IMG/VR virus record: IMGVR_UViG_3300028767_000027
Span: 1-54,877 of that record
Strand: one strand, 5' to 3'
Source: a virus
Lineage: Duplodnaviria > Caudoviricetes
DNA length: 54,877 nt
The position numbers and the translations under genes are program-made. Below, piece after piece: positions 1-7,414 of this stretch (positions are counted from its first letter, which is position 1; each line of letters starts with the position of its first letter). Below the pieces are notes generated by a model, which worked only from the letters and a program-made list of their open reading frames with translations, did not search any database and was not told the origin of the DNA.

Positions 1-43
1 GTGCAATGTACGTATAATCTATAAACAAACTAAAACATTTATC

Positions 44-397
44 ATGCAAAAGATTTTTTTCGTTCCAGTGTTCACATTAGCTGAGGTGACTGAATTTGAT
101 ATGGTTGGTTGTTTCTATCGTGAGTATGTCAATGCACACGACGACTACCCAGATAAAATCATTGCAGCCGTAGACGTTACGGAAATGGGCGACACTTTTA
201 TGTTAGAGATTATGAAAGTAATTGATGATCTCGATGATCGCACACCAACATTTTATGTTGATATCCCACCTACCAACGGCGGCGACGAATGGACAAATGT
301 CGAATCGTTCAAAGAAAAGCCATTGGCAATTGCTTATGCTAAAGAGCACTTCGGCGCAGATGAAAACGGAATGATCTGTATTGTAAGCCAATCATGA
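44..397 (+). CDS. hypothetical protein
   Basis: 117-aa ORF after CGTATAA promoter half (11-17) and A-rich leader. Confidence 0.75.
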   Translation: MQKIFFVPVFTLAEVTEFDMVGCFYREYVNAHDDYPDKIIAAVDVTEMGDTFMLEIMKVIDDLDDRTPTFYVDIPPTNGGDEWTNVESFKEKPLAIAYAKEHFGADENGMICIVSQS

Positions 398-558
398 AAC
401 AAAAGCTAATCGACGCAGTTATAGCACAATTGGTAATAGATATCATAGAGGGTGACTATACAGTTCTGAATGAACTATTACAGGACGTTGAGTCTATGGA
501 CTTAATTCAAGCTTTGCCCGAATCTGATCAGGGCGAATATGTTAAGAATTTGTTGTAA
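394..558 (+). CDS. small acidic hypothetical protein (54 aa, MKQKLIDAVIAQL...)
   Basis: ATGA overlap with upstream stop; translated by hand; stop lies within the next promoter. Confidence 0.65.
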   Translation: MKQKLIDAVIAQLVIDIIEGDYTVLNELLQDVESMDLIQALPESDQGEYVKNLL

Positions 559-609
559 CCTTTTCTTCTGGCTATCGTATAATCTTAGACAAACACTAAA
601 ACATTTATC

Positions 610-963
610 ATGGAAAACACAAACGTTGTAGGCAATGTACTGGATTTGAAAACTGCCGTATGCAGAGAATTTGATGTCAATGAATTACATCTGACCATTG
701 TACGTGGTGCTGGTCAATGGGCTTGGACTTGGGGCTATGTTAAAGCTGTTCAGGCTGTTAAGAACAAAGCATTGCGTTTCACTGTCACTGGTCGCAAGCA
801 TAAAGGTTGGGTCTACATTGTACTAAACGGTTTGGACTTGTTTGATATCTATTACACCAGTAAGCAAGATAAGATTAAAAAGGTTGAGAATGACATTTAT
901 ATCGAAGACCTGATCAATACGCTTGACATTTCAATTGAAAGGATTGCGGCATATAAGAGCTAA
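610..963 (+). CDS. hypothetical protein
   Basis: 117-aa ORF behind promoter at 554. Confidence 0.8.
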   Translation: MENTNVVGNVLDLKTAVCREFDVNELHLTIVRGAGQWAWTWGYVKAVQAVKNKALRFTVTGRKHKGWVYIVLNGLDLFDIYYTSKQDKIKKVENDIYIEDLINTLDISIERIAAYKS

Positions 964-964
964 T

Positions 965-1013
965 AAGGTTGCAGGCATTGTACGAAGATAATACACAATG
1001 CCTGTAACCTTTT
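965..1013 (+). terminator. intrinsic terminator whose 3' arm is the -35 box of the next promoter
   Basis: AAGGTTGCAGGCATTGT...ACAATGCCTGTAACCTT 17-bp stem followed by T tract. Confidence 0.75.
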
Positions 1014-1057
1014 CCAGTTTCTAACGTATAATCTATAAACAATTAAAGATTCTTATT

Positions 1058-1609
1058 ATGGTAATCTCGAAGGAAGAAAAGTTTGCGACTGAAATGGCTG
1101 ACCAGCTATTAGTAATGCGTGGCGAAGACGGCTACATTAGTTTCATGACAGATAAAGGCAATATAGTTCCGCTATCATTCATTGAAACCATTCTGGGGGA
1201 TCAAGAACATGTTGATAATATTAAGAAAAAGATTCACGACGAAATCCTAGGTCATGTTATTGAGTTCCCTAGAGAGTTCAAAACCTGTATAAATGCTCAG
1301 GGTACACGTGAATTTTGCTATTCATCCGATATCTACGACTATGCCACAAATATCGAAGAATACATTGAAGGTCAGTACGACGATCTGATTAAAGCAACCG
1401 AGGCATTCGATGAAGCAACCAAATCCAAAGCAAGGCAAGGTCGCCTACAGATCAACTACAGGGTTGTAGTGTCTATCGAAAGAGTTGAATACGACCCAGA
1501 AACTGGCGAATCAGCAATGTTCGAGGAATCTCGTTCCATCGTAAGTATTGTATCAGAGCTTAATACTGCTGATCAGGTAAAATATGATTTAGTAACCAAA
1601 TACGTTTAA
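1058..1609 (+). CDS. hypothetical protein
   Basis: 183-aa ORF behind promoter at 1003. Confidence 0.8.
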   Translation: MVISKEEKFATEMADQLLVMRGEDGYISFMTDKGNIVPLSFIETILGDQEHVDNIKKKIHDEILGHVIEFPREFKTCINAQGTREFCYSSDIYDYATNIEEYIEGQYDDLIKATEAFDEATKSKARQGRLQINYRVVVSIERVEYDPETGESAMFEESRSIVSIVSELNTADQVKYDLVTKYV

Positions 1610-1614
1610 TAGTC

Positions 1615-2055
1615 ATGATCGAAAAATTCTCATTGCTCCATGCAGCATTGTACTCCAAACATTGGTATGAAAAATATAGTGGCAAAAATACAATCTGGGA
1701 CGATCTTAAGAAGACAATGTCCGCTGATGGCTATAATGGCGAACATATGACCAAAGGTGACATTGTCCAAGTGATGCTACACCAGTGCCAGCTTATTAAT
1801 CATAGGGCTGTCACTGACCTTACAGAATTCGTTTCAGGTATATCTAAAGAAGGCTGCTGGCGACATGGCTACTTTACAAAAGATAACACACCATTCCAGC
1901 ATAAAAATGAAGTGCTCGAAGAATATGATTTCTATGAAGCCATTGTACGATACTGTTTATCATCCATCTGCATGTTATCAGCCGAAGAACTTGGAGGCGT
2001 TGTATTGCCAGCACCTGACTATATAAATGTATTGCCAATGCGTATTGACATTTAG
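1615..2055 (+). CDS. hypothetical protein
   Basis: 146-aa ORF, operonic spacing. Confidence 0.75.
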   Translation: MIEKFSLLHAALYSKHWYEKYSGKNTIWDDLKKTMSADGYNGEHMTKGDIVQVMLHQCQLINHRAVTDLTEFVSGISKEGCWRHGYFTKDNTPFQHKNEVLEEYDFYEAIVRYCLSSICMLSAEELGGVVLPAPDYINVLPMRIDI

Positions 2056-2125
2056 AATGAGTCTTTGCTTAGATTCGTAACAAAATAGGATTGTTAACGT
2101 ATAATCAATAAACAAAAACATTATC

Positions 2126-2647
2126 ATGAATTTAAAAGTTGAATTGAAAAAGGTTTCCACGTTCCAAGGACATGACGGCATTGGCTTTAATGCTGATCTA
2201 TGGATTAACGGCATAGAGTGCGCACATGTACATGACGGTGCATACGGCGGCTGCATGGACTACACATACAATCTGTATAACAATGCCAAGGCAGAGGCTG
2301 TAAAGAAGAACATCAAACTGTTCGAAGACCATATCAAGACTATGCCTGATATCATTTTTCATCGTAAAGATGGCGAAGACATGGTTATCAAAATGGATAT
2401 GGATCAATACATTGAAGGGCTACTGGCTGCTGATTCCAAGAAGAAAGACCAAAGGAAGATCATCAGGAATCAGGCGAACCATTTCATCTTTGGCTTACCA
2501 GACGCTGACAGCTACAACCAGATTAAGCTTTCAGTTCCAATCGCTAAGTGCCCAGAGGCTCAACTGAGGGCTAGCATGCTAAGGATCATGGCTGAGCACT
2601 TCAAACAGGGCTACGTATTTTTTAACACAAACCTTCCCAAAATTTAA
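2126..2647 (+). CDS. hypothetical protein
   Basis: 173-aa ORF behind variant promoter CGTAAC-N16-CGTATAA at 2076. Confidence 0.8.
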   Translation: MNLKVELKKVSTFQGHDGIGFNADLWINGIECAHVHDGAYGGCMDYTYNLYNNAKAEAVKKNIKLFEDHIKTMPDIIFHRKDGEDMVIKMDMDQYIEGLLAADSKKKDQRKIIRNQANHFIFGLPDADSYNQIKLSVPIAKCPEAQLRASMLRIMAEHFKQGYVFFNTNLPKI

Positions 2648-2649
2648 TT

Positions 2650-3330
2650 ATGGCATACTATTACAAGATTCAAGCTTTAAGAGCTGTTATTGAAGACCTT
2701 ATAGAAAAAGGCAATAAGAAAACAAACATCTGCTATAAGATAGGCTACACATCAACGTCTCAATTGAATAATGTCCTTAGTGGCAAATCAATAATGTCAA
2801 CAAAAGCTATCCAAGGATTATTCAAAGCTTACAATGTGAACCCAACATATTTCTTCTCTGGCGCAGGTGCAATGTACATCAACCAGATCGAGCCAGCACC
2901 ATTCATGGAACTTACGCCTTCTGTTGAGGGTTATACCATCACCGAAAAAGAAGTTGAAAGCATTTTCCAGCAGCTGTCTCGCCTACATTCTTATGGCTTT
3001 AGCATTGCGACGATCCTAGCTGGGGACGACAATGACTACATTAAAGGCATGAACATCGGTAATAGTATTTCTGAAATGCATGAATCAATCAAAGCCATCG
3101 ATGAAGATATCAAAGCAGCACTGGCACGTGGCATCATCAAACCAGTGGAAGCTGCTGAACAGAAGATGATTGTCAGTGAGTCAGCTGAGAAATGGACAGA
3201 AGAAATAATGAATAGCTGTAGGAAGAGAATCCTTGATAGGGCAATGGATGATACCGAAGAGAAGTTCTACGAAGAGAAGCATCGTAGAACAGTCGATGAT
3301 AATAATAATGTCATTCATCATGATCATTGA
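2650..3330 (+). CDS. XRE-type helix-turn-helix protein with C-terminal extension
   Basis: ICYKIGYTSTSQLNNVLSGK...YNVNPTYFFSGAGAM resembles the Cro/CI-like HTH plus 'VNPxWLLTGxGxM' pattern. Confidence 0.65.
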   Translation: MAYYYKIQALRAVIEDLIEKGNKKTNICYKIGYTSTSQLNNVLSGKSIMSTKAIQGLFKAYNVNPTYFFSGAGAMYINQIEPAPFMELTPSVEGYTITEKEVESIFQQLSRLHSYGFSIATILAGDDNDYIKGMNIGNSISEMHESIKAIDEDIKAALARGIIKPVEAAEQKMIVSESAEKWTEEIMNSCRKRILDRAMDDTEEKFYEEKHRRTVDDNNNVIHHDH

Positions 3331-3347
3331 TAGGTAACATAATATTA

Positions 3348-3386
3348 AAAGCCCTGAGATCAGTTAAGTTCTCAGGGCTTTCTTTT
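3348..3386. terminator. bidirectional intrinsic terminator between convergent genes
   Basis: AAAGCCCTGAGA-loop-TCTCAGGGCTTT with A/T tracts on both sides. Confidence 0.85.
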
Positions 3387-3406
3387 GGTAACTATATAAA
3401 GGATGC

Positions 3407-3979
3407 TTAGTTCGTCCACACTAGATTGCCAATTTCTTCGGCAATTATTTTCTTCAAATTCATTTGGTTTTCTACCAGAGAAACACTACCTTTGTCGGCT
3501 CGATATATGTTAAACACAATGTCCGATGGCATATGCTTTCTTATGTTAAGGTAGGCTTGTATGTCCTTATCCCTATCATCATATACATCTATCTGTTGCA
3601 AGTCTTGCTCCCATCTAAGAAAATCAAATATCTTTTCTCCTTTGTCAACATTGTTATCATTCATGATAATGCCGTCAACCAGAATATTATTCTTATGTAA
3701 AACTTTCTCCAACTCTGGACGAAGCTCCTCAACTCTACTGGTTAATATAATAACCATTGTACGAGGATCAGCATACTCTTTGGTTAATATACTAACCATA
3801 CCATTGTACGGCTTTATGTTAAACACATCTGTGTCCAAGGAAGCTGGAGAACTCCACCATCCCTTCTGAGGAAATTCCTTCCCTGTCTTCTGCTTATAGA
3901 TTGCCATGCCTTCTTCTGGCTCTGGCGTAGCAAACAATGTTTTATCAAAGTCGAATGCTACTAATTTTGTTATGACCAT
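3407..3979 (-). CDS. HAD-superfamily phosphatase, Swiss-Army-Knife RNA-repair-like
   Basis: motif I FDFDKTLF, WWSSPASL, motif II LTSR, K, motif IV YDDRDKD; C-terminal LKKIIAEEI tag. Confidence 0.75.
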   Translation of the reverse strand: MVITKLVAFDFDKTLFATPEPEEGMAIYKQKTGKEFPQKGWWSSPASLDTDVFNIKPYNGMVSILTKEYADPRTMVIILTSRVEELRPELEKVLHKNNILVDGIIMNDNNVDKGEKIFDFLRWEQDLQQIDVYDDRDKDIQAYLNIRKHMPSDIVFNIYRADKGSVSLVENQMNLKKIIAEEIGNLVWTN

Positions 3980-4054
3980 TGTACATGTTTAATAATAAAT
4001 AGTAGCAATGTACGTTTAGTATTACTACCATTGTACGAGCCTTATCCAACACCA

Positions 4055-4086
4055 CAAAGATAGGCATAACAAATGACACTGCCAAA
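4055..4086 (-). promoter_or_regulatory. Bacteroidota housekeeping-sigma promoter (-33 TTTG / -7 TATCTTTG)
   Basis: reverse complement reads TTTGGCAG...TATCTTTG, pointing to the HAD gene. Confidence 0.7.
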
Positions 4087-4167
4087 TAAAATCAATAAAT
4101 AATTTCATTTATTTTTGTAACCTTTTATAAATCTATACGTATAATCAATAAATAATACGATATCAAT

Positions 4168-4518
4168 ATGAGAGCATTTTTACCTACAGATTATAAAGCT
4201 AAGCTGCTCGGAATTAAATCTGGCGACAAGGTGTCATGTGATAACGCATTATTAATCTGCTCCGAACTTGAATATTATTACCTGCAAGAGATCAGGAGAA
4301 TGCAAGAAGAAACAAAAGCTGACACCTTAAGACTTAATAAGGTACTTCAAAATGCTATTAATGCCCTTGACAGAATTAATCAGAAACACGTGTTCACTCA
4401 TACAGACGGCGACGGCGGTGAACTGCCTGAATGCTATTGGGGTATGATGCGTAAATTGGGCGACGTTAATAAAGACTCTAAAGACTATGACGATTTCTTT
4501 CACGGAGAGAAAAAATAA
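4168..4518 (+). CDS. hypothetical protein
   Basis: 116-aa ORF behind promoter at 4116. Confidence 0.75.
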   Translation: MRAFLPTDYKAKLLGIKSGDKVSCDNALLICSELEYYYLQEIRRMQEETKADTLRLNKVLQNAINALDRINQKHVFTHTDGDGGELPECYWGMMRKLGDVNKDSKDYDDFFHGEKK

Positions 4519-4582
4519 ATCAACATTTCTGTAACATTTAATAAGTTTCTACGTATAAGTAACAAATAAATATATTTCAAAT

Positions 4583-5608
4583 ATGAAAGATAAACAATTC
4601 AATCCACTTGACCCAACCAATTGGCTAAACCAAAATGCTTCTGGTAACACTGTCGCTCCCAATAAACGTACTGTAGATGAAATCTATATCGACGTTTTGA
4701 AGACCAAAAAATTAAATAGGAAAATCGCTAAGCTCGAATACAAAGCTGGCTTCTTTGAATTCCGTAACGGCTTCGTAGAAGCTGCTGGTAAACGCCTGAT
4801 TAGGGCTATCGAACTCGACCCTACCATCAAACACAAATACAAATTCAATGGCGAAACCCTGCTCTTAGCTGACCAGAAAACTGCTGACAAAGTATTTGCC
4901 AATAAAGACGTTACCATCAATGGCATCTTCGATGCTAAAAATATGAAACCTGTCGATCAGTCTGAGGTTAAACGTGACTCAAAAAAATATGATGTCCCGT
5001 CTAATAATCAATTTGTAGGAGCTAAATCGAAATTCCAAAAGGATCTTGAAGATGCATTAAATAATATCAAACCAGCCAAATCAAAATTCCAACAGCAACT
5101 CGAAGATGCATACGCTTTGCGTGATAAAAGTATCAGTGAGAAAAAAGCCGCCGCAAAAGAAGTAACTTCACCAACCGAAGTATCTCCGCTAAAAGCTTCT
5201 CGTCCATCAAAGAACTTCAAAGATATTGATGTCCCAGAACGTGACGATTTGTTCGTCAATACCTTCCGCAGTGTTGACGCTGACGACCTGTTCAACGTTG
5301 GTATGAATGACTCCTTTGAATTATTGTTGCTCGAAATCGAAGCTATGGCTAATGCTCTTGAAAAAAAGAACGTTTCCAAAAACTTCAATGCTCCTGTCAA
5401 TAAAGAAGCCACTCGTAAACAAGTTGACGGCATCAGAAAAATTCTTACTGACGAGGAACACGACACCGTCACCAAAGACATGATCAAAAACATGCCGAAT
5501 CGCAAACATGCTCAAATGCTAAATAATGCCTTATTTGACAAATACGATAAACGTATCGTTCTATCAGACGAGGACATTAAACAGCTTCTTAAAATCTTGA
5601 ACGCATAA
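4583..5608 (+). CDS. hypothetical Lys-rich protein with tandem KSKFQxxLEDA repeat
   Basis: 341-aa ORF behind promoter at 4530; last gene before the long non-coding region. Confidence 0.8.
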   Translation: MKDKQFNPLDPTNWLNQNASGNTVAPNKRTVDEIYIDVLKTKKLNRKIAKLEYKAGFFEFRNGFVEAAGKRLIRAIELDPTIKHKYKFNGETLLLADQKTADKVFANKDVTINGIFDAKNMKPVDQSEVKRDSKKYDVPSNNQFVGAKSKFQKDLEDALNNIKPAKSKFQQQLEDAYALRDKSISEKKAAAKEVTSPTEVSPLKASRPSKNFKDIDVPERDDLFVNTFRSVDADDLFNVGMNDSFELLLLEIEAMANALEKKNVSKNFNAPVNKEATRKQVDGIRKILTDEEHDTVTKDMIKNMPNRKHAQMLNNALFDKYDKRIVLSDEDIKQLLKILNA

Positions 5609-5613
5609 AACAA

Positions 5614-5650
5614 AATAATTACAGGGGTCAAATAGGTCTCTGTAATTATT
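5614..5650 (+). terminator. hairpin terminator
   Basis: AATAATTACAGGG...CTCTGTAATTATT inverted repeat just after the stop. Confidence 0.6.
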
Positions 5651-6212
5651 ATTATATTCATTATAAGCGTTTTATAAATTCGACCTTGTGCAAATACAGG
5701 TCATTAGTGCCCTTATCTGACCCGTTTTTTAGGCGTTAAACCCTACAGATTTTCTAATGACCTGTTTTTGAACATAATAACTTTTATAAATTAAATCTCC
5801 TATAGGGGTCTAAGAGGTTAAAACCGTTCTTATCGAATAATTTCTATGGTTATCTAAGACGATCCTTATGTTAATCAGTCATTTTTTATAAAATATTATA
5901 ATTATGATTTACAGAAAAAAATTCGGAAGCGGTCACACGCATGTGGGGGCGACAAGCGCACCAAAAACGATCATTTTTAGCCATTATTAGATATTTAGAC
6001 AAACGTCTAATTAATCTCTCTACTTTTCAGCGTTTAACTTATTGATTATCAATCTTTCCTTTTTTCGGCTTTGATTAGGTTTATCAAACCATTTTGTGAC
6101 TATAAGTATAGTTAAGGAACATATAAAACCCATATAAAGGAATGGTTAGAAAATGGTCGAATAAATGATCATAATCTGATCGAAAAATAAGACCCTATCC
6201 ACAGATTTTTGC

Positions 6213-6264
6213 TTGCATTATTTGATTATAATATATACTTTTGTGTCGATCATCTAATTGATCT
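6213..6264 (+). promoter_or_regulatory. Bacteroidota sigma-A promoter plus GATCA-N6-TGATC element
   Basis: TTGC at 6213, TACTTTTG at 6236, CGATCATCTAATTGATCT at 6247. Confidence 0.65.
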
Positions 6265-6270
6265 TAATAT

Positions 6271-6528
6271 ATGGATATAAAAGAGCTGGGTAGTTTAGTT
6301 TTTTATAAGATGGAAAACTATCATCAGATTACAATTGATTTGGTTGATGATGCCGAGAGTATTTTAACTGAGGATGATTTAACATTGGAGAGAGTGTGTG
6401 CATTGAGTTATGTTGTTTCAATCTTGTCAGAGGTTTTTAATCCTGAGTTTAAAGATGATATTGACATTATTAATAAATTGAAAATAGAATTAGATACCAT
6501 AATAGCAACAAATAAATACACATGTTAA
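6271..6528 (+). CDS. hypothetical protein
   Basis: 85-aa ORF. Confidence 0.7.
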   Translation: MDIKELGSLVFYKMENYHQITIDLVDDAESILTEDDLTLERVCALSYVVSILSEVFNPEFKDDIDIINKLKIELDTIIATNKYTC

Positions 6529-6532
6529 TCTT

Positions 6533-6742
6533 ATGGTACATATTGAGAAGCCAAAGGTTTTCAATCCGTATGAATTAGATATAACCATTGATAATGTGGA
6601 TTCACGCATAGGGTATTTTAAATTAAAAAACCAATATGTGAATGAGTTGTTCTATGGCTATATTACTGTCACGGAGTTCATGGAGAAAATGAATATTTTG
6701 TATCAAAAGGAGTTCAGATATTTTGATAAAGATATGGAATAG
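6533..6742 (+). CDS. hypothetical protein, paralog of the C-terminal half of 10989..11348
   Basis: shared FNP...GY(F/Y)KLK.QY.NELFYG(Y/F)ITV.EF. Confidence 0.75.
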   Translation: MVHIEKPKVFNPYELDITIDNVDSRIGYFKLKNQYVNELFYGYITVTEFMEKMNILYQKEFRYFDKDME

Positions 6743-6835
6743 GTTTTTTAATTAAAACCATATAATATTGAAAAGGTTATGGATTATTCTGTAACCTTTT
6801 TTGTTATCTTACGTATAAAGAAATAAAGAACTGTC

Positions 6836-7087
6836 ATGAATAGGAAATTACACAATACACCCGAAGATCGTTTATATTTAAGTGAATTGATTGCAGATGG
6901 TAAATTACCATTGGCTACATTTGAGATAGGTGTATTCACATCTATGTTGGCTGATGGCTTTAAGGTTATAACACATTTCGGTAAAGTCACTTCAATTGAT
7001 CTTGAAAATGGCTACTGCTATTGGGTATCAGCTGGCAATGAAATGCCATGTGTTTGTATCAATGTGATTACATTGATAAATCCGTAA
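6836..7087 (+). CDS. hypothetical protein
   Basis: 83-aa ORF behind promoter at 6790. Confidence 0.7.
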   Translation: MNRKLHNTPEDRLYLSELIADGKLPLATFEIGVFTSMLADGFKVITHFGKVTSIDLENGYCYWVSAGNEMPCVCINVITLINP

Positions 7088-7126: not shown

Positions 7127-7414
7127 ATGGAAAAGATATTCACAACTGAGTTTTTGAAAGAGATTGGTTTCACATTGGTTTATGAGAAGATCAGTGAGTT
7201 CAAGCCTAATTTGCCTTATGGCTGTGCTAAGGACAGAATTGGTATGACGCATATCTATTGGAATGAAGATGGTCACTCTGTCACTTACTTCGGCGAACCG
7301 TTAGAACCAAATATCTCCATGAGTATTCGTAAAGATGCTGATACCCGATATGCTTTCAATGGTTATGTTTTTAATCAAGATGATGTTCGTAGGCTGTTAA
7401 AGCTAAGTTATTAA
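7127..7414 (+). CDS. hypothetical protein
   Basis: 95-aa ORF behind promoter at 7083. Confidence 0.75.
   Translation: MEKIFTTEFLKEIGFTLVYEKISEFKPNLPYGCAKDRIGMTHIYWNEDGHSVTYFGEPLEPNISMSIRKDADTRYAFNGYVFNQDDVRRLLKLSY

What the first reader, a model, noticed from the sequence alone, without database searches (positions are those of the whole stretch)
4..4037. Strand-polarised CAWTGTAC(G) motif: 14 copies in the first 4 kb, seemingly absent afterwards
Seen: CA[A/T]TGTAC on the + strand at 4, 633, 696, 816, 976, 1646, 1941, 2870, 3755, 3802, 3977, 4006 and 4029 (13 located precisely; I counted 14 on a first pass, so the total needs a recount). Copies lie inside genes on both strands and between genes, with five in 3755-4037. 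A rough base-composition estimate gives well under one expected copy per 4 kb. By eye I found no + strand copy and one reverse copy (50258) in the remaining 50 kb. Inference: an oriented protein-loading signal (initiator/partition site, KOPS/Chi-like, or DNA entry/packaging signal) tied to the origin-like region at 5.6-6.3 kb.
Basis: partly seen in the sequence, partly recalled or inferred. Interest (0 to 1): 0.7.

Follow-up and report, generated by a model that had tools for sequence, protein, structure and literature searches.

The report
Strand-locked DNA motif in jumbo-phage early block
A ten-letter DNA word that always points the same way fills the early-gene region of a group of uncultured giant phages, and this window holds the last 4 kb of that region; what reads the word is still unknown.

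Summary
CAWTGTAC occurs 13 times on the + strand in bases 4-4036, never again on that strand in the other 50.8 kb, and once reversed at 50258. None of 100 shuffles reached 14. Synonymous-codon shuffling gives 0.8 copies inside genes against 8 observed.

The "first 4 kb" is a contig-edge effect. The window is a 17%-complete fragment of a ~320-kb jumbo phage, and public contigs run on past its left end. In relatives the same word fills a 21-42 kb block. The block starts just after a phage ECF sigma-factor gene and usually ends, in a dense array, where two gene arms meet. Pooled over five blocks there are 102 copies on one strand and 4 on the other, against 0 and 1 in the flanks. The full word is a-S-CAWTGTAC-R with no partner box.

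Copies keep their direction inside a reverse-strand gene, lie in all reading frames, and turn over between relatives, yet 7 of 11 are kept in place at ~60% identity.

Best reading (0.4): direction-locked binding sites for a sequence-specific duplex-DNA-binding protein, probably phage-encoded. Main rival (0.25): a Chi-like nuclease-control cluster. The scan noted this word before on another genome (e1-3669131).

The parts
1..4037 (+). Right-hand end of the motif-rich early block, cut by the contig end. It holds 13 exact and 4 one-letter-variant copies, all on the + strand.
   Evidence: The homologous block in G010 is 108.5-129.9 kb, with 23 forward and 2 reverse copies.
4..11 (+). Copy abutting an ECF-type -10 box (CAATGTA-CGTATAAT). 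Its upstream part is lost at the contig end.
   Evidence: The same register occurs in 10 promoters of relatives.
633..640 (+). Copy inside ORF 610-963, kept at the same alignment column in G010.
696..703 (+). Copy inside ORF 610-963, not kept in G010.
816..823 (+). Copy inside ORF 610-963, kept in G010.
976..983 (+). Intergenic copy in the 5' arm of a terminator-like hairpin, not kept in G010.
1646..1653 (+). Copy inside ORF 1615-2055.
1941..1948 (+). Copy inside ORF 1615-2055.
2870..2877 (+). Copy inside ORF 2650-3330 (HTH-type regulator by PHROG), kept in G010.
3407..3979 (-). HAD-family gene on the opposite strand. It carries + strand copies at 3755, 3802 and 3977 (the last over its start codon) and a variant at 3517.
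   Evidence: Pfam PF10307, E 3.4e-6. Sites 3517, 3802 and 3977 are kept in G010, with A/T swapped at the degenerate letter of 3977.
3977..4036 (+). Terminal array of three copies, starts 29 and 23 bases apart.
   Evidence: Arrays stand at the same block end in G010 (129792/129832/129852) and G005 (209563/209588/209612).
4055..4086 (-). Candidate host-type (Bacteroidota-style) promoter TTTG-N20-TAnnTTTG for the HAD gene. The array lies in its transcribed leader.
   Evidence: Both boxes are kept in G010 while the spacer changes. The consensus itself is recalled, not tested.
50258..50265 (-). The single reverse copy, inside ORF 50061-50660. Within chance expectation.

Best explanation
The word a-S-CAWTGTAC-R is a recognition site read on duplex DNA by a sequence-specific DNA-binding protein. 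That protein is most likely encoded by this phage lineage. The sites are laid down in one fixed direction across the early-gene block, which begins at the phage's first ECF sigma-factor gene. They are densest at the block's two ends, and the downstream end carries a terminal array.

Shown: the sites are selected at the DNA level, are locked to one direction whatever the local gene direction, are confined to one homologous block, and are conserved across a clade of 320-360 kb phages.

Inferred: the bound protein acts in a direction-dependent way on this block. It may switch off or insulate early transcription, or stop machines that enter from the neighbouring arm. The reader protein has not been identified.
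For: 1. Strand lock. There are 102 copies on one strand and 4 on the other in 108,750 bases of five blocks, against 0 and 1 in 105,807 bases of flanks. In whole records the counts are G005 24/5, G008 6/30, G010 23/2, G012 2/23 and G015 28/2.

2. The direction follows the block, not the gene. The reverse-strand HAD gene carries 3 exact + strand copies in the window and 2 in G010, and none in its own sense. A strong two-way terminator at 3348-3381 lies between it and the upstream + strand genes.

3. Selection on the DNA word. The codon-shuffle null fails. Copies occur in all three frames, 27/16/6. Seven of 11 window sites are kept at the same column in G010 at 60-62% identity, one with an A/T swap at the degenerate letter. 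Other sites turn over.

4. Duplex-type symmetry. The core CAWTG is a palindrome around the degenerate letter. G006 has full GTACAWTGTAC palindromes.

5. Arrays beside promoters. Three to five copies sit in the leader of the HAD gene's conserved host-type promoter. Five tandem copies, 20-27 bases apart, stand upstream of the sigma gene in G012. Sixteen of 102 copies lie in or just after ECF promoters.

6. The word drifts between lineages: ACAATGTAC and CAATGTCC in G006/G007, CAATGTTCG in G010. It is absent as a cluster from 6 of 14 related records. That pattern fits a reader that co-evolves with its sites.
Against: - No reader is known. The window's HTH gene (2650-3330) has no homologue in 0 of 5 complete relatives.
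- The 173-aa family of ORF 2126-2647 is missing from G015, which has the motif.
- The conserved ~190-aa neighbour of the sigma gene is also present in G009 and G014, which lack the cluster.
- An ordinary repressor needs neither one fixed direction nor 49 of 102 sites inside genes.
- The fixed register in promoter spacers can be explained by economy alone. The promoter already supplies 'ACG', and the ~60-fold excess there matches that discount.
- The closest precedent for a one-strand 8-mer clustered toward one end of a phage genome is Chi, which is read on single strands by a host nuclease.
Confidence: 0.4

Rival explanations
1. Chi-like cluster. The word is the recombination-hotspot sequence of the host's AddAB/RecBCD-type nuclease. 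It is stacked in the active direction next to a DNA end (a packaging or injection end at the arm junction), so that the nuclease is tamed before it destroys the early genes.
For: The form matches phages LLS (23 Chi sites, 20 in one direction, concentrated near the right end) and MD8 (32 versus 0), from passages of PMC12315714 read. Here the word is an 8-mer with 18-28 exact copies per genome, one strand only, indifferent to gene direction and reading frame. Density rises toward a junction and ends in an array. One-letter variants are also enriched. The Chi of Bacteroides AddAB was unknown in 2010 (PMC2887965).
Against: In 301 Bacteroidota genomes the 10-mer reaches at most about 41 per Mb (G059: 180 in 4.4 Mb), against roughly 600 per Mb on one strand in the blocks. 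The two genomes listed in full, G263 and G055, show both strands intermixed. The apparent one-strand runs came from a truncated listing. The host is unknown, so this test is weak. Dense clumps 20-40 kb from the junction, right at the sigma gene, are not needed by this model. The palindromic core and the full palindromes in G006 suit duplex binding better. No physical genome end is known: the 123-base end repeat of G005 sits inside a gene arm and looks like an assembly overlap.
Confidence: 0.25
2. A signal read during or after transcription. The word would act on + strand RNA or on the non-template strand, as a processing or decay site for early messages, or as a repeated antitermination or pause signal for a long early transcript.
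For: The word points the same way as nearly all genes of the block. It is 2-3 times denser between genes than inside them: 47 of 102 copies lie in 21.7% of the bases. Some copies sit just after terminator T-tracts or just before start codons.
Against: Copies conserved in antisense to the HAD gene lie behind a strong + strand terminator and have no + strand ECF promoter between 3381 and 4116. There is no conserved hairpin or flank. No RNA run is available.
Confidence: 0.12
3. A packaging or DNA-entry signal. The copies would be terminase small-subunit or entry-stop sites marking one genome end, as in P1 pac hexamers or the T5 first-step-transfer boundary.
For: There is a one-sided array at a junction. 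The block is about 7% of the genome (23 of 322 kb in G005). The TGTAC(A/G) part resembles the form of P1's TGATC(A/G) elements, which I recall and did not test.
Against: Known pac sites span a few hundred bases, not 21-42 kb. No end is mapped. Contigs bridge the region.
Confidence: 0.08
4. A promoter element for a second phage sigma factor or a phage RNA polymerase.
For: Each complete relative has two ECF sigma genes. The word overlaps the -10 box in 10 promoters.
Against: No second box appears at any fixed distance within 45 bases on either side (largest information 0.12 bit, n=101). Arrays at the ends of G005, G008 and G015 would fire into converging genes.
Confidence: 0.03

Closest known systems
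Terminally clustered, one-direction Chi sites of lambdoid phage LLS and Pseudomonas phage MD8 (PMC12315714; passages read, supplements not seen)
   Same: An 8-mer with about 20-30 copies, nearly all on one strand, concentrated toward one end or junction of the phage genome, and independent of gene content.
   Different: There the word is the host's known Chi, abundant in the host chromosome. Here the host is unknown and no sampled Bacteroidota genome is rich in the word. The block is 21-42 kb of a ~320 kb genome, with extra clumps far from the junction. The core is palindromic.
Dispersed asymmetric operators of the phage P1 C1 repressor (recalled, not read here)
   Same: One phage protein reading many copies of an asymmetric word scattered over the genome, some overlapping promoters.
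   Different: As I recall them, P1 operators sit at promoters and are not locked to one strand. Here half the copies are inside genes and 96% share one direction.
Polar barriers: Tus-Ter, RTP-Ter, rDNA fork barriers (recalled)
   Same: Asymmetric protein-bound sites whose direction matters, with back-up copies spread behind a front array placed where converging traffic meets.
   Different: Ter systems form two opposed groups, and only one group exists here. Site density is about 1 per kb, not 1 per 100 kb. No Tus/RTP homologue was sought.
T4 MotA boxes of middle promoters (recalled)
   Same: A 9-10 base asymmetric word pointing with transcription and dense in an early region, some copies inside upstream genes.
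   Different: MotA boxes stand at a fixed distance from a -10 box. This word has no partner box.

Membership tests
Phage Chi cluster (LLS type) | Short oriented word, strongly one-stranded in the phage | tested here: met
   102 versus 4 in five blocks
Phage Chi cluster (LLS type) | The word is the host's Chi: abundant and skewed in the host chromosome | tested here: inconclusive
   No enrichment near Chi level in 301 of 301 sampled Bacteroidota genomes. No strand switch in G263 or G055. The host itself is unknown.
Phage Chi cluster (LLS type) | Cluster lies beside a DNA end open to the nuclease | not testable with these tools
   Only contigs are available. The cluster abuts an arm junction, but no end is mapped.
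Phage Chi cluster (LLS type) | The phage lacks anti-RecBCD and recombination genes | not tested
   -
Ter/Tus-type fork trap | Two opposed groups of sites flanking a terminus | tested here: not met
   G005 has 18 + strand copies left of the junction and none reversed in the 60 kb to its right.
Ter/Tus-type fork trap | A cognate terminator protein (Tus/RTP) | not tested
   -
KOPS-type translocase guide | Genome-wide polarity converging on one point from both sides | tested here: not met
   Confined to one block and one side
ECF-sigma promoter element | A second box at a fixed spacing of 16-17 bases | tested here: not met
   No conserved column within 45 bases on either side
Repressor operators | Sites overlap promoters or transcription starts | tested here: inconclusive
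   16 of 102 copies lie in or just after ECF promoters, and arrays stand at two candidate host-type promoters. The spacer register is explained by sequence economy.
Repressor operators | A cognate DNA-binding protein encoded with the sites | tested here: inconclusive
   Three candidates fail to track the motif.
Iteron or partition arrays | Tandem direct repeats confined to a few hundred bases at an origin or centromere | tested here: not met
   Small arrays exist, but the copies spread over 21-42 kb.
Bacteroidota LexA-like SOS boxes | GGA-N5-TCC or CTAA-N5-TTAG palindromes | tested here: not met
   The word differs (PMC8565304 passages).

The most novel reading that the evidence does not exclude
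These phages would carry a one-sided polar barrier system. A phage-encoded protein locks onto the word in a direction-dependent way, as Tus does on Ter. From the terminal array backwards, it stops replication forks or RNA polymerases that enter the early block head-on from the neighbouring arm. Traffic moving with the block's genes passes freely.
Probability: 0.15. Interest if true: 0.85.

Novelty: new variant of a known kind. Interest (0 to 1): 0.6.

Why it matters
A 25-to-1 strand lock held across phages that share only about 60% of their DNA means some machine reads direction on this block. Two outcomes are possible.

The array would then be a ready-made probe for finding that protein.
- If the word is a host Chi, it would hand over the still-unknown Chi of a Bacteroidota-type AddAB. 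It would also extend the recently described 'Chi-armoured phage' strategy from 40-kb lambdoid phages to 320-kb environmental ones.

Either way the word marks the early block and its boundary in uncultured genomes, which helps annotation.

Tried and rejected
**Kin searches that found nothing**
- DNA search of the first 6 kb against cultured phages gave no match.
- The helicase protein gave only distant hits of 26% identity or less.
- A protein-pattern scan of viral contigs with ORF 2650-3330 found no relative.

**Two-copy pattern scan of viral contigs**
These were chance hits or coding tandem repeats (L055, L069, L087).
- None is kin by tblastn or by helicase search (0 of 4 records; L030 is not held).
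- L029 carries a different, longer word.

**Ideas dropped**
- The Bacteroidota SOS-box idea does not fit; the motifs differ.
- The host-wide skew idea arose, where the listed places ran on one strand. The full lists of G263 and G055 show both strands mixed, so this was an effect of a truncated listing.
- Promoter class: promoters inside and outside the block look like one class. The comparison is confounded by genome.
- G009 and G014: the stretches beside their ~190-aa gene hold no sigma gene and no strand-biased word. No 'replacement motif' was found, though I may have fetched the wrong side.

**Reader candidates**
- HTH ORF 2650-3330, the 173-aa family and the ~190-aa sigma neighbour do not track the motif.
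- The ~190-aa family has no Pfam hit and no match to a solved structure below E 0.09.
- Its fold came out at pLDDT 48.8, too poor to search with, so no fold search was run.

**Other checks**
- Rfam on bases 1-7000 gave nothing near a gathering score.
- A localised-8-mer scan of G005 is topped by repeated coding DNA, tRNA genes and promoters. The motif is not the most localised word there.
- Sequencing runs: no RNA holder is listed. The depth step near 4.2 kb differs between runs and goes with two sequence variants at 4161-4306, so it is no evidence for a terminal repeat.
- Literature searches found no description of this word or of an oriented motif in jumbo-phage early regions. Supplements of PMC12315714 (its Tables S3 and Fig. 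S5) were not seen and may hold further Chi-cluster cases.


Full report
**What is there.** An exact scan finds CAWTGTAC 13 times on the + strand between bases 4 and 4036, and once on the - strand at 50258-50265. The '14th' copy is the reverse one. Dinucleotide shuffles of the window give 3.76 copies on both strands together, and 0 of 100 reach 14. Eight copies lie wholly inside genes. Shuffling synonymous codons within each of the eight genes of 1-4100 gives a mean of 0.815 and at most 5 in 2000 trials. The copies use different reading frames, lie in genes on both strands, and lie between genes.

**What the window is.** It is a virus record of 54,877 bases, scored 17% complete, so it is a piece of a ~320-kb jumbo phage. 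It carries an RNA ligase, a DNA ligase, a radical-SAM enzyme, a helicase and a GIY-YIG endonuclease. A very regular ECF-sigma-type promoter (TGTAAC, T tract, 16 bases, CGTATAA) stands before genes all along the + strand: 43 CGTATAA on + against 4 on -. This agrees with note e1-6297932. Runs labelled peat metagenome hold the sequence. In three of the four runs laid, a 2,171-base contig covers window 1-254 with its last 254 bases, so the genome continues leftward. The '4 kb' limit is therefore the contig edge.

**Relatives.** Using the promoter as a probe, I reached many 150-370 kb viral contigs and counted the word in 14 of them.
- Five have a one-strand cluster: G005 24 forward/5 reverse, G008 6/30, G010 23/2, G012 2/23, G015 28/2.
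- Three have a cluster on both strands (G006, G007, G016). In G006 this is partly because the sites are full palindromes GTACAWTGTAC, or read as the variant CAATGTCC on the other strand.
- Six show only background counts (G009, G011, G013, G014, G017, G018). Two of these are short fragments.

G010 is the closest relative, at about 60% DNA identity. It has homologues of window ORFs 610-963, 2126-2647, 2650-3330, the HAD gene, 4168-4518 and 4583-5608, in the same order. Its cluster runs from 108.5 to 129.9 kb and ends in the array 129792/129832/129852, which aligns with window 3977-4036. The window therefore holds the last 4 kb of a ~21-kb block.

**Anatomy of the block.** In G005, G008, G010, G012 and G015 the block starts directly after (in G012 just before) a phage ECF sigma gene with Pfam Sigma70_r2 and r4_2 domains. 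It is made of small + strand genes with ECF promoters. It contains DUF932, GP88 and, in most of these genomes, rIIA/rIIB homologues. Each complete relative has a second ECF sigma gene elsewhere.

Pooled over the window and four relatives, the exact word occurs 102 times on the block's coding strand and 4 times on the other in 108,750 bases. The 105,807 bases of flanks hold 0 and 1. Four one-letter variants show the same bias. With them, G015 has 64 against 6. An alignment of 101 sites shows a compact word, a-S-CAWTGTAC-R, and no other conserved column within 45 bases.

Of 102 sites:
- 49 are in sense ORFs, in frames 27/16/6;
- 6 are in antisense ORFs;
- 47 are between genes, although intergenic DNA is only 21.7% of the blocks;
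- of the 47, 10 sit in the promoter spacer in one register (the word's last C is the C of CGTA) and 6 lie within 35 bases after the -10 box.

That register needs no special explanation. The promoter already supplies 'ACG', and this alone predicts an excess of the size seen.

Sites are clumped. Density is highest just after the sigma gene and at the downstream end: G10 has 15 sites in 1.8 kb and 22 in the last 4 kb. G012 has five tandem copies 20-27 bases apart upstream of the sigma gene.

**Where the block ends.** In G005, whose whole record I read, the genome has a + arm (120-210 kb) and a long - arm that meet at 210 kb. The array 209427-209619 sits exactly at that convergence, which is also a local maximum of cumulative GC skew. 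No reversed copies lie on the other side. G006, G007, G008 and G015 also end the block at a convergent junction.

In the window and G010 the genes that follow run the same way. A gene right of the window's gap (7127-7414) has its G005 homologue on the opposite strand, so the neighbouring arm is inverted between lineages. The 5.6-6.3 kb gap is partly conserved in G010. It has no Rfam match. I did not study it further.

**DNA or RNA?** The HAD gene (3407-3979, Pfam PF10307) lies on the - strand in both the window and G010. Upstream of it both genomes keep a TTTG-N20-TAnnTTTG element while the spacer changes. This is the Bacteroidota housekeeping promoter form as I recall it. Together with start codons that lack Shine-Dalgarno words, it suggests a Bacteroidota host.

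Within and just upstream of this gene the window has six + strand sites (3517 variant, 3755, 3802, 3977, 4006, 4029) and none in the gene's own sense. Sites 3517, 3802, 3977 and 4029 are kept at the same column in G010, and 3977 has its degenerate letter swapped. A perfect 12-base hairpin with T tracts on both sides (3348-3381) separates the gene from the upstream + strand genes. No + strand ECF promoter lies between it and 4116. The direction of the word thus follows the block's axis, not the local transcript. This argues for reading on DNA. It does not exclude a read-through early transcript.

**Which reader?** Three candidates do not track the motif. The window's HTH gene matches 0 of 5 complete relatives. 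The 173-aa family is absent from G015. The ~190-aa sigma neighbour is present in G009 and G014, which lack a cluster. Its fold prediction failed at pLDDT 48.8.

The palindromic core with a degenerate centre, the full palindromes in G006, the arrays with roughly two-turn spacing beside promoters, and the drift of the word between lineages all favour a duplex-binding, probably phage-encoded, protein. The one-direction rule and the many sites inside genes mean direction matters to whatever it does. I put this reading at 0.4.

**The Chi rival.** Passages of PMC12315714 describe phage LLS with 23 Chi sites, 20 in the direction active for RecBCD entering the right end and concentrated there. They also describe phage MD8 with 32 against 0. 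The likeness in form is close. Bacteroides uses AddAB, and its Chi was unknown in 2010 (PMC2887965).

I tested the prediction that the word is common in host genomes. In 301 Bacteroidota genomes the 10-mer never exceeds about 41 per Mb. In the two genomes listed in full the strands are mixed. The host is not known, so this lowers the Chi reading without removing it (0.25). Clumps far from the junction also fit it poorly.

**Verdict.** This is a clade-wide, direction-locked word that marks the sigma-headed early block of uncultured jumbo phages. The link to an origin, and the specific mechanisms offered, are not established. I found no published description in five literature searches. The scan itself had noted the same word on another genome (e1-3669131).

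Noticed in passing
window 554-52000, + strand: About 40 near-identical ECF-type promoters (TGTAAC, T tract, 16 bases, CGTATAA) stand before genes, all on one strand. Relatives carry two phage ECF sigma genes each. In G005 these promoters are absent from about 110 kb of the - arm, which hints at a second promoter class for late genes.
   Followed up: partly
window 4055-4086 (-); L249:9879-9910 (-): A conserved TTTG-N20-TAnnTTTG element lies upstream of the reverse-strand HAD gene. It is a candidate host (Bacteroidota-type) promoter and a clue to the host.
   Followed up: partly
L248/L249, L250/L251, L239/L240 (relatives G010, G012, G005); window 6748, 22365: The palindrome TTTTAATTAAAAA is very common in relatives, directly before start codons and inside promoter spacers. 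It has stops in all frames followed by an A-rich leader. It is rare in the window (5 TTAATTAA).
   Followed up: no
L029:45-2143: An unrelated 319,857-base viral contig has seven + strand copies of CATTGTACAATCAAAC in 2.3 kb at gene-sized spacing. This is a different, longer, promoter-like word that shares the 8-mer by chance or convergence.
   Followed up: no
window 5609-6270; L249:11932-12512: The non-coding gap after ORF 4583-5608 is conserved in patches with G010 (69-82% identity) and holds a 37-base inverted repeat (5671-5707/5754-5790). It has no Rfam match. In the window cumulative GC skew is lowest here.
   Followed up: partly
window 7127-7414 versus L240:19788-20000 (-): The gene arm right of the block is inverted between the window/G010 lineage and G005, with the breakpoint near the motif array.
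   Followed up: partly
L259 and other loci: The best bacterial-genome hit for the phage sigma lies on a 362,763-base contig filed under a Candidatus Paceibacterota MAG. Several other hits are in Patescibacteria MAGs. These look like jumbo-phage contigs binned into MAGs.
   Followed up: no
window 4161-4306: Two sequence variants (11 differences in 146 bases) coexist in three runs. The depth step at about 4.2 kb differs between runs, so several strains appear to share the block but differ to its right.
   Followed up: no
window 5020-5111: There is a 38-base direct repeat 54 bases apart inside ORF 4583-5608, which is an internal duplication of a peptide segment.
   Followed up: no
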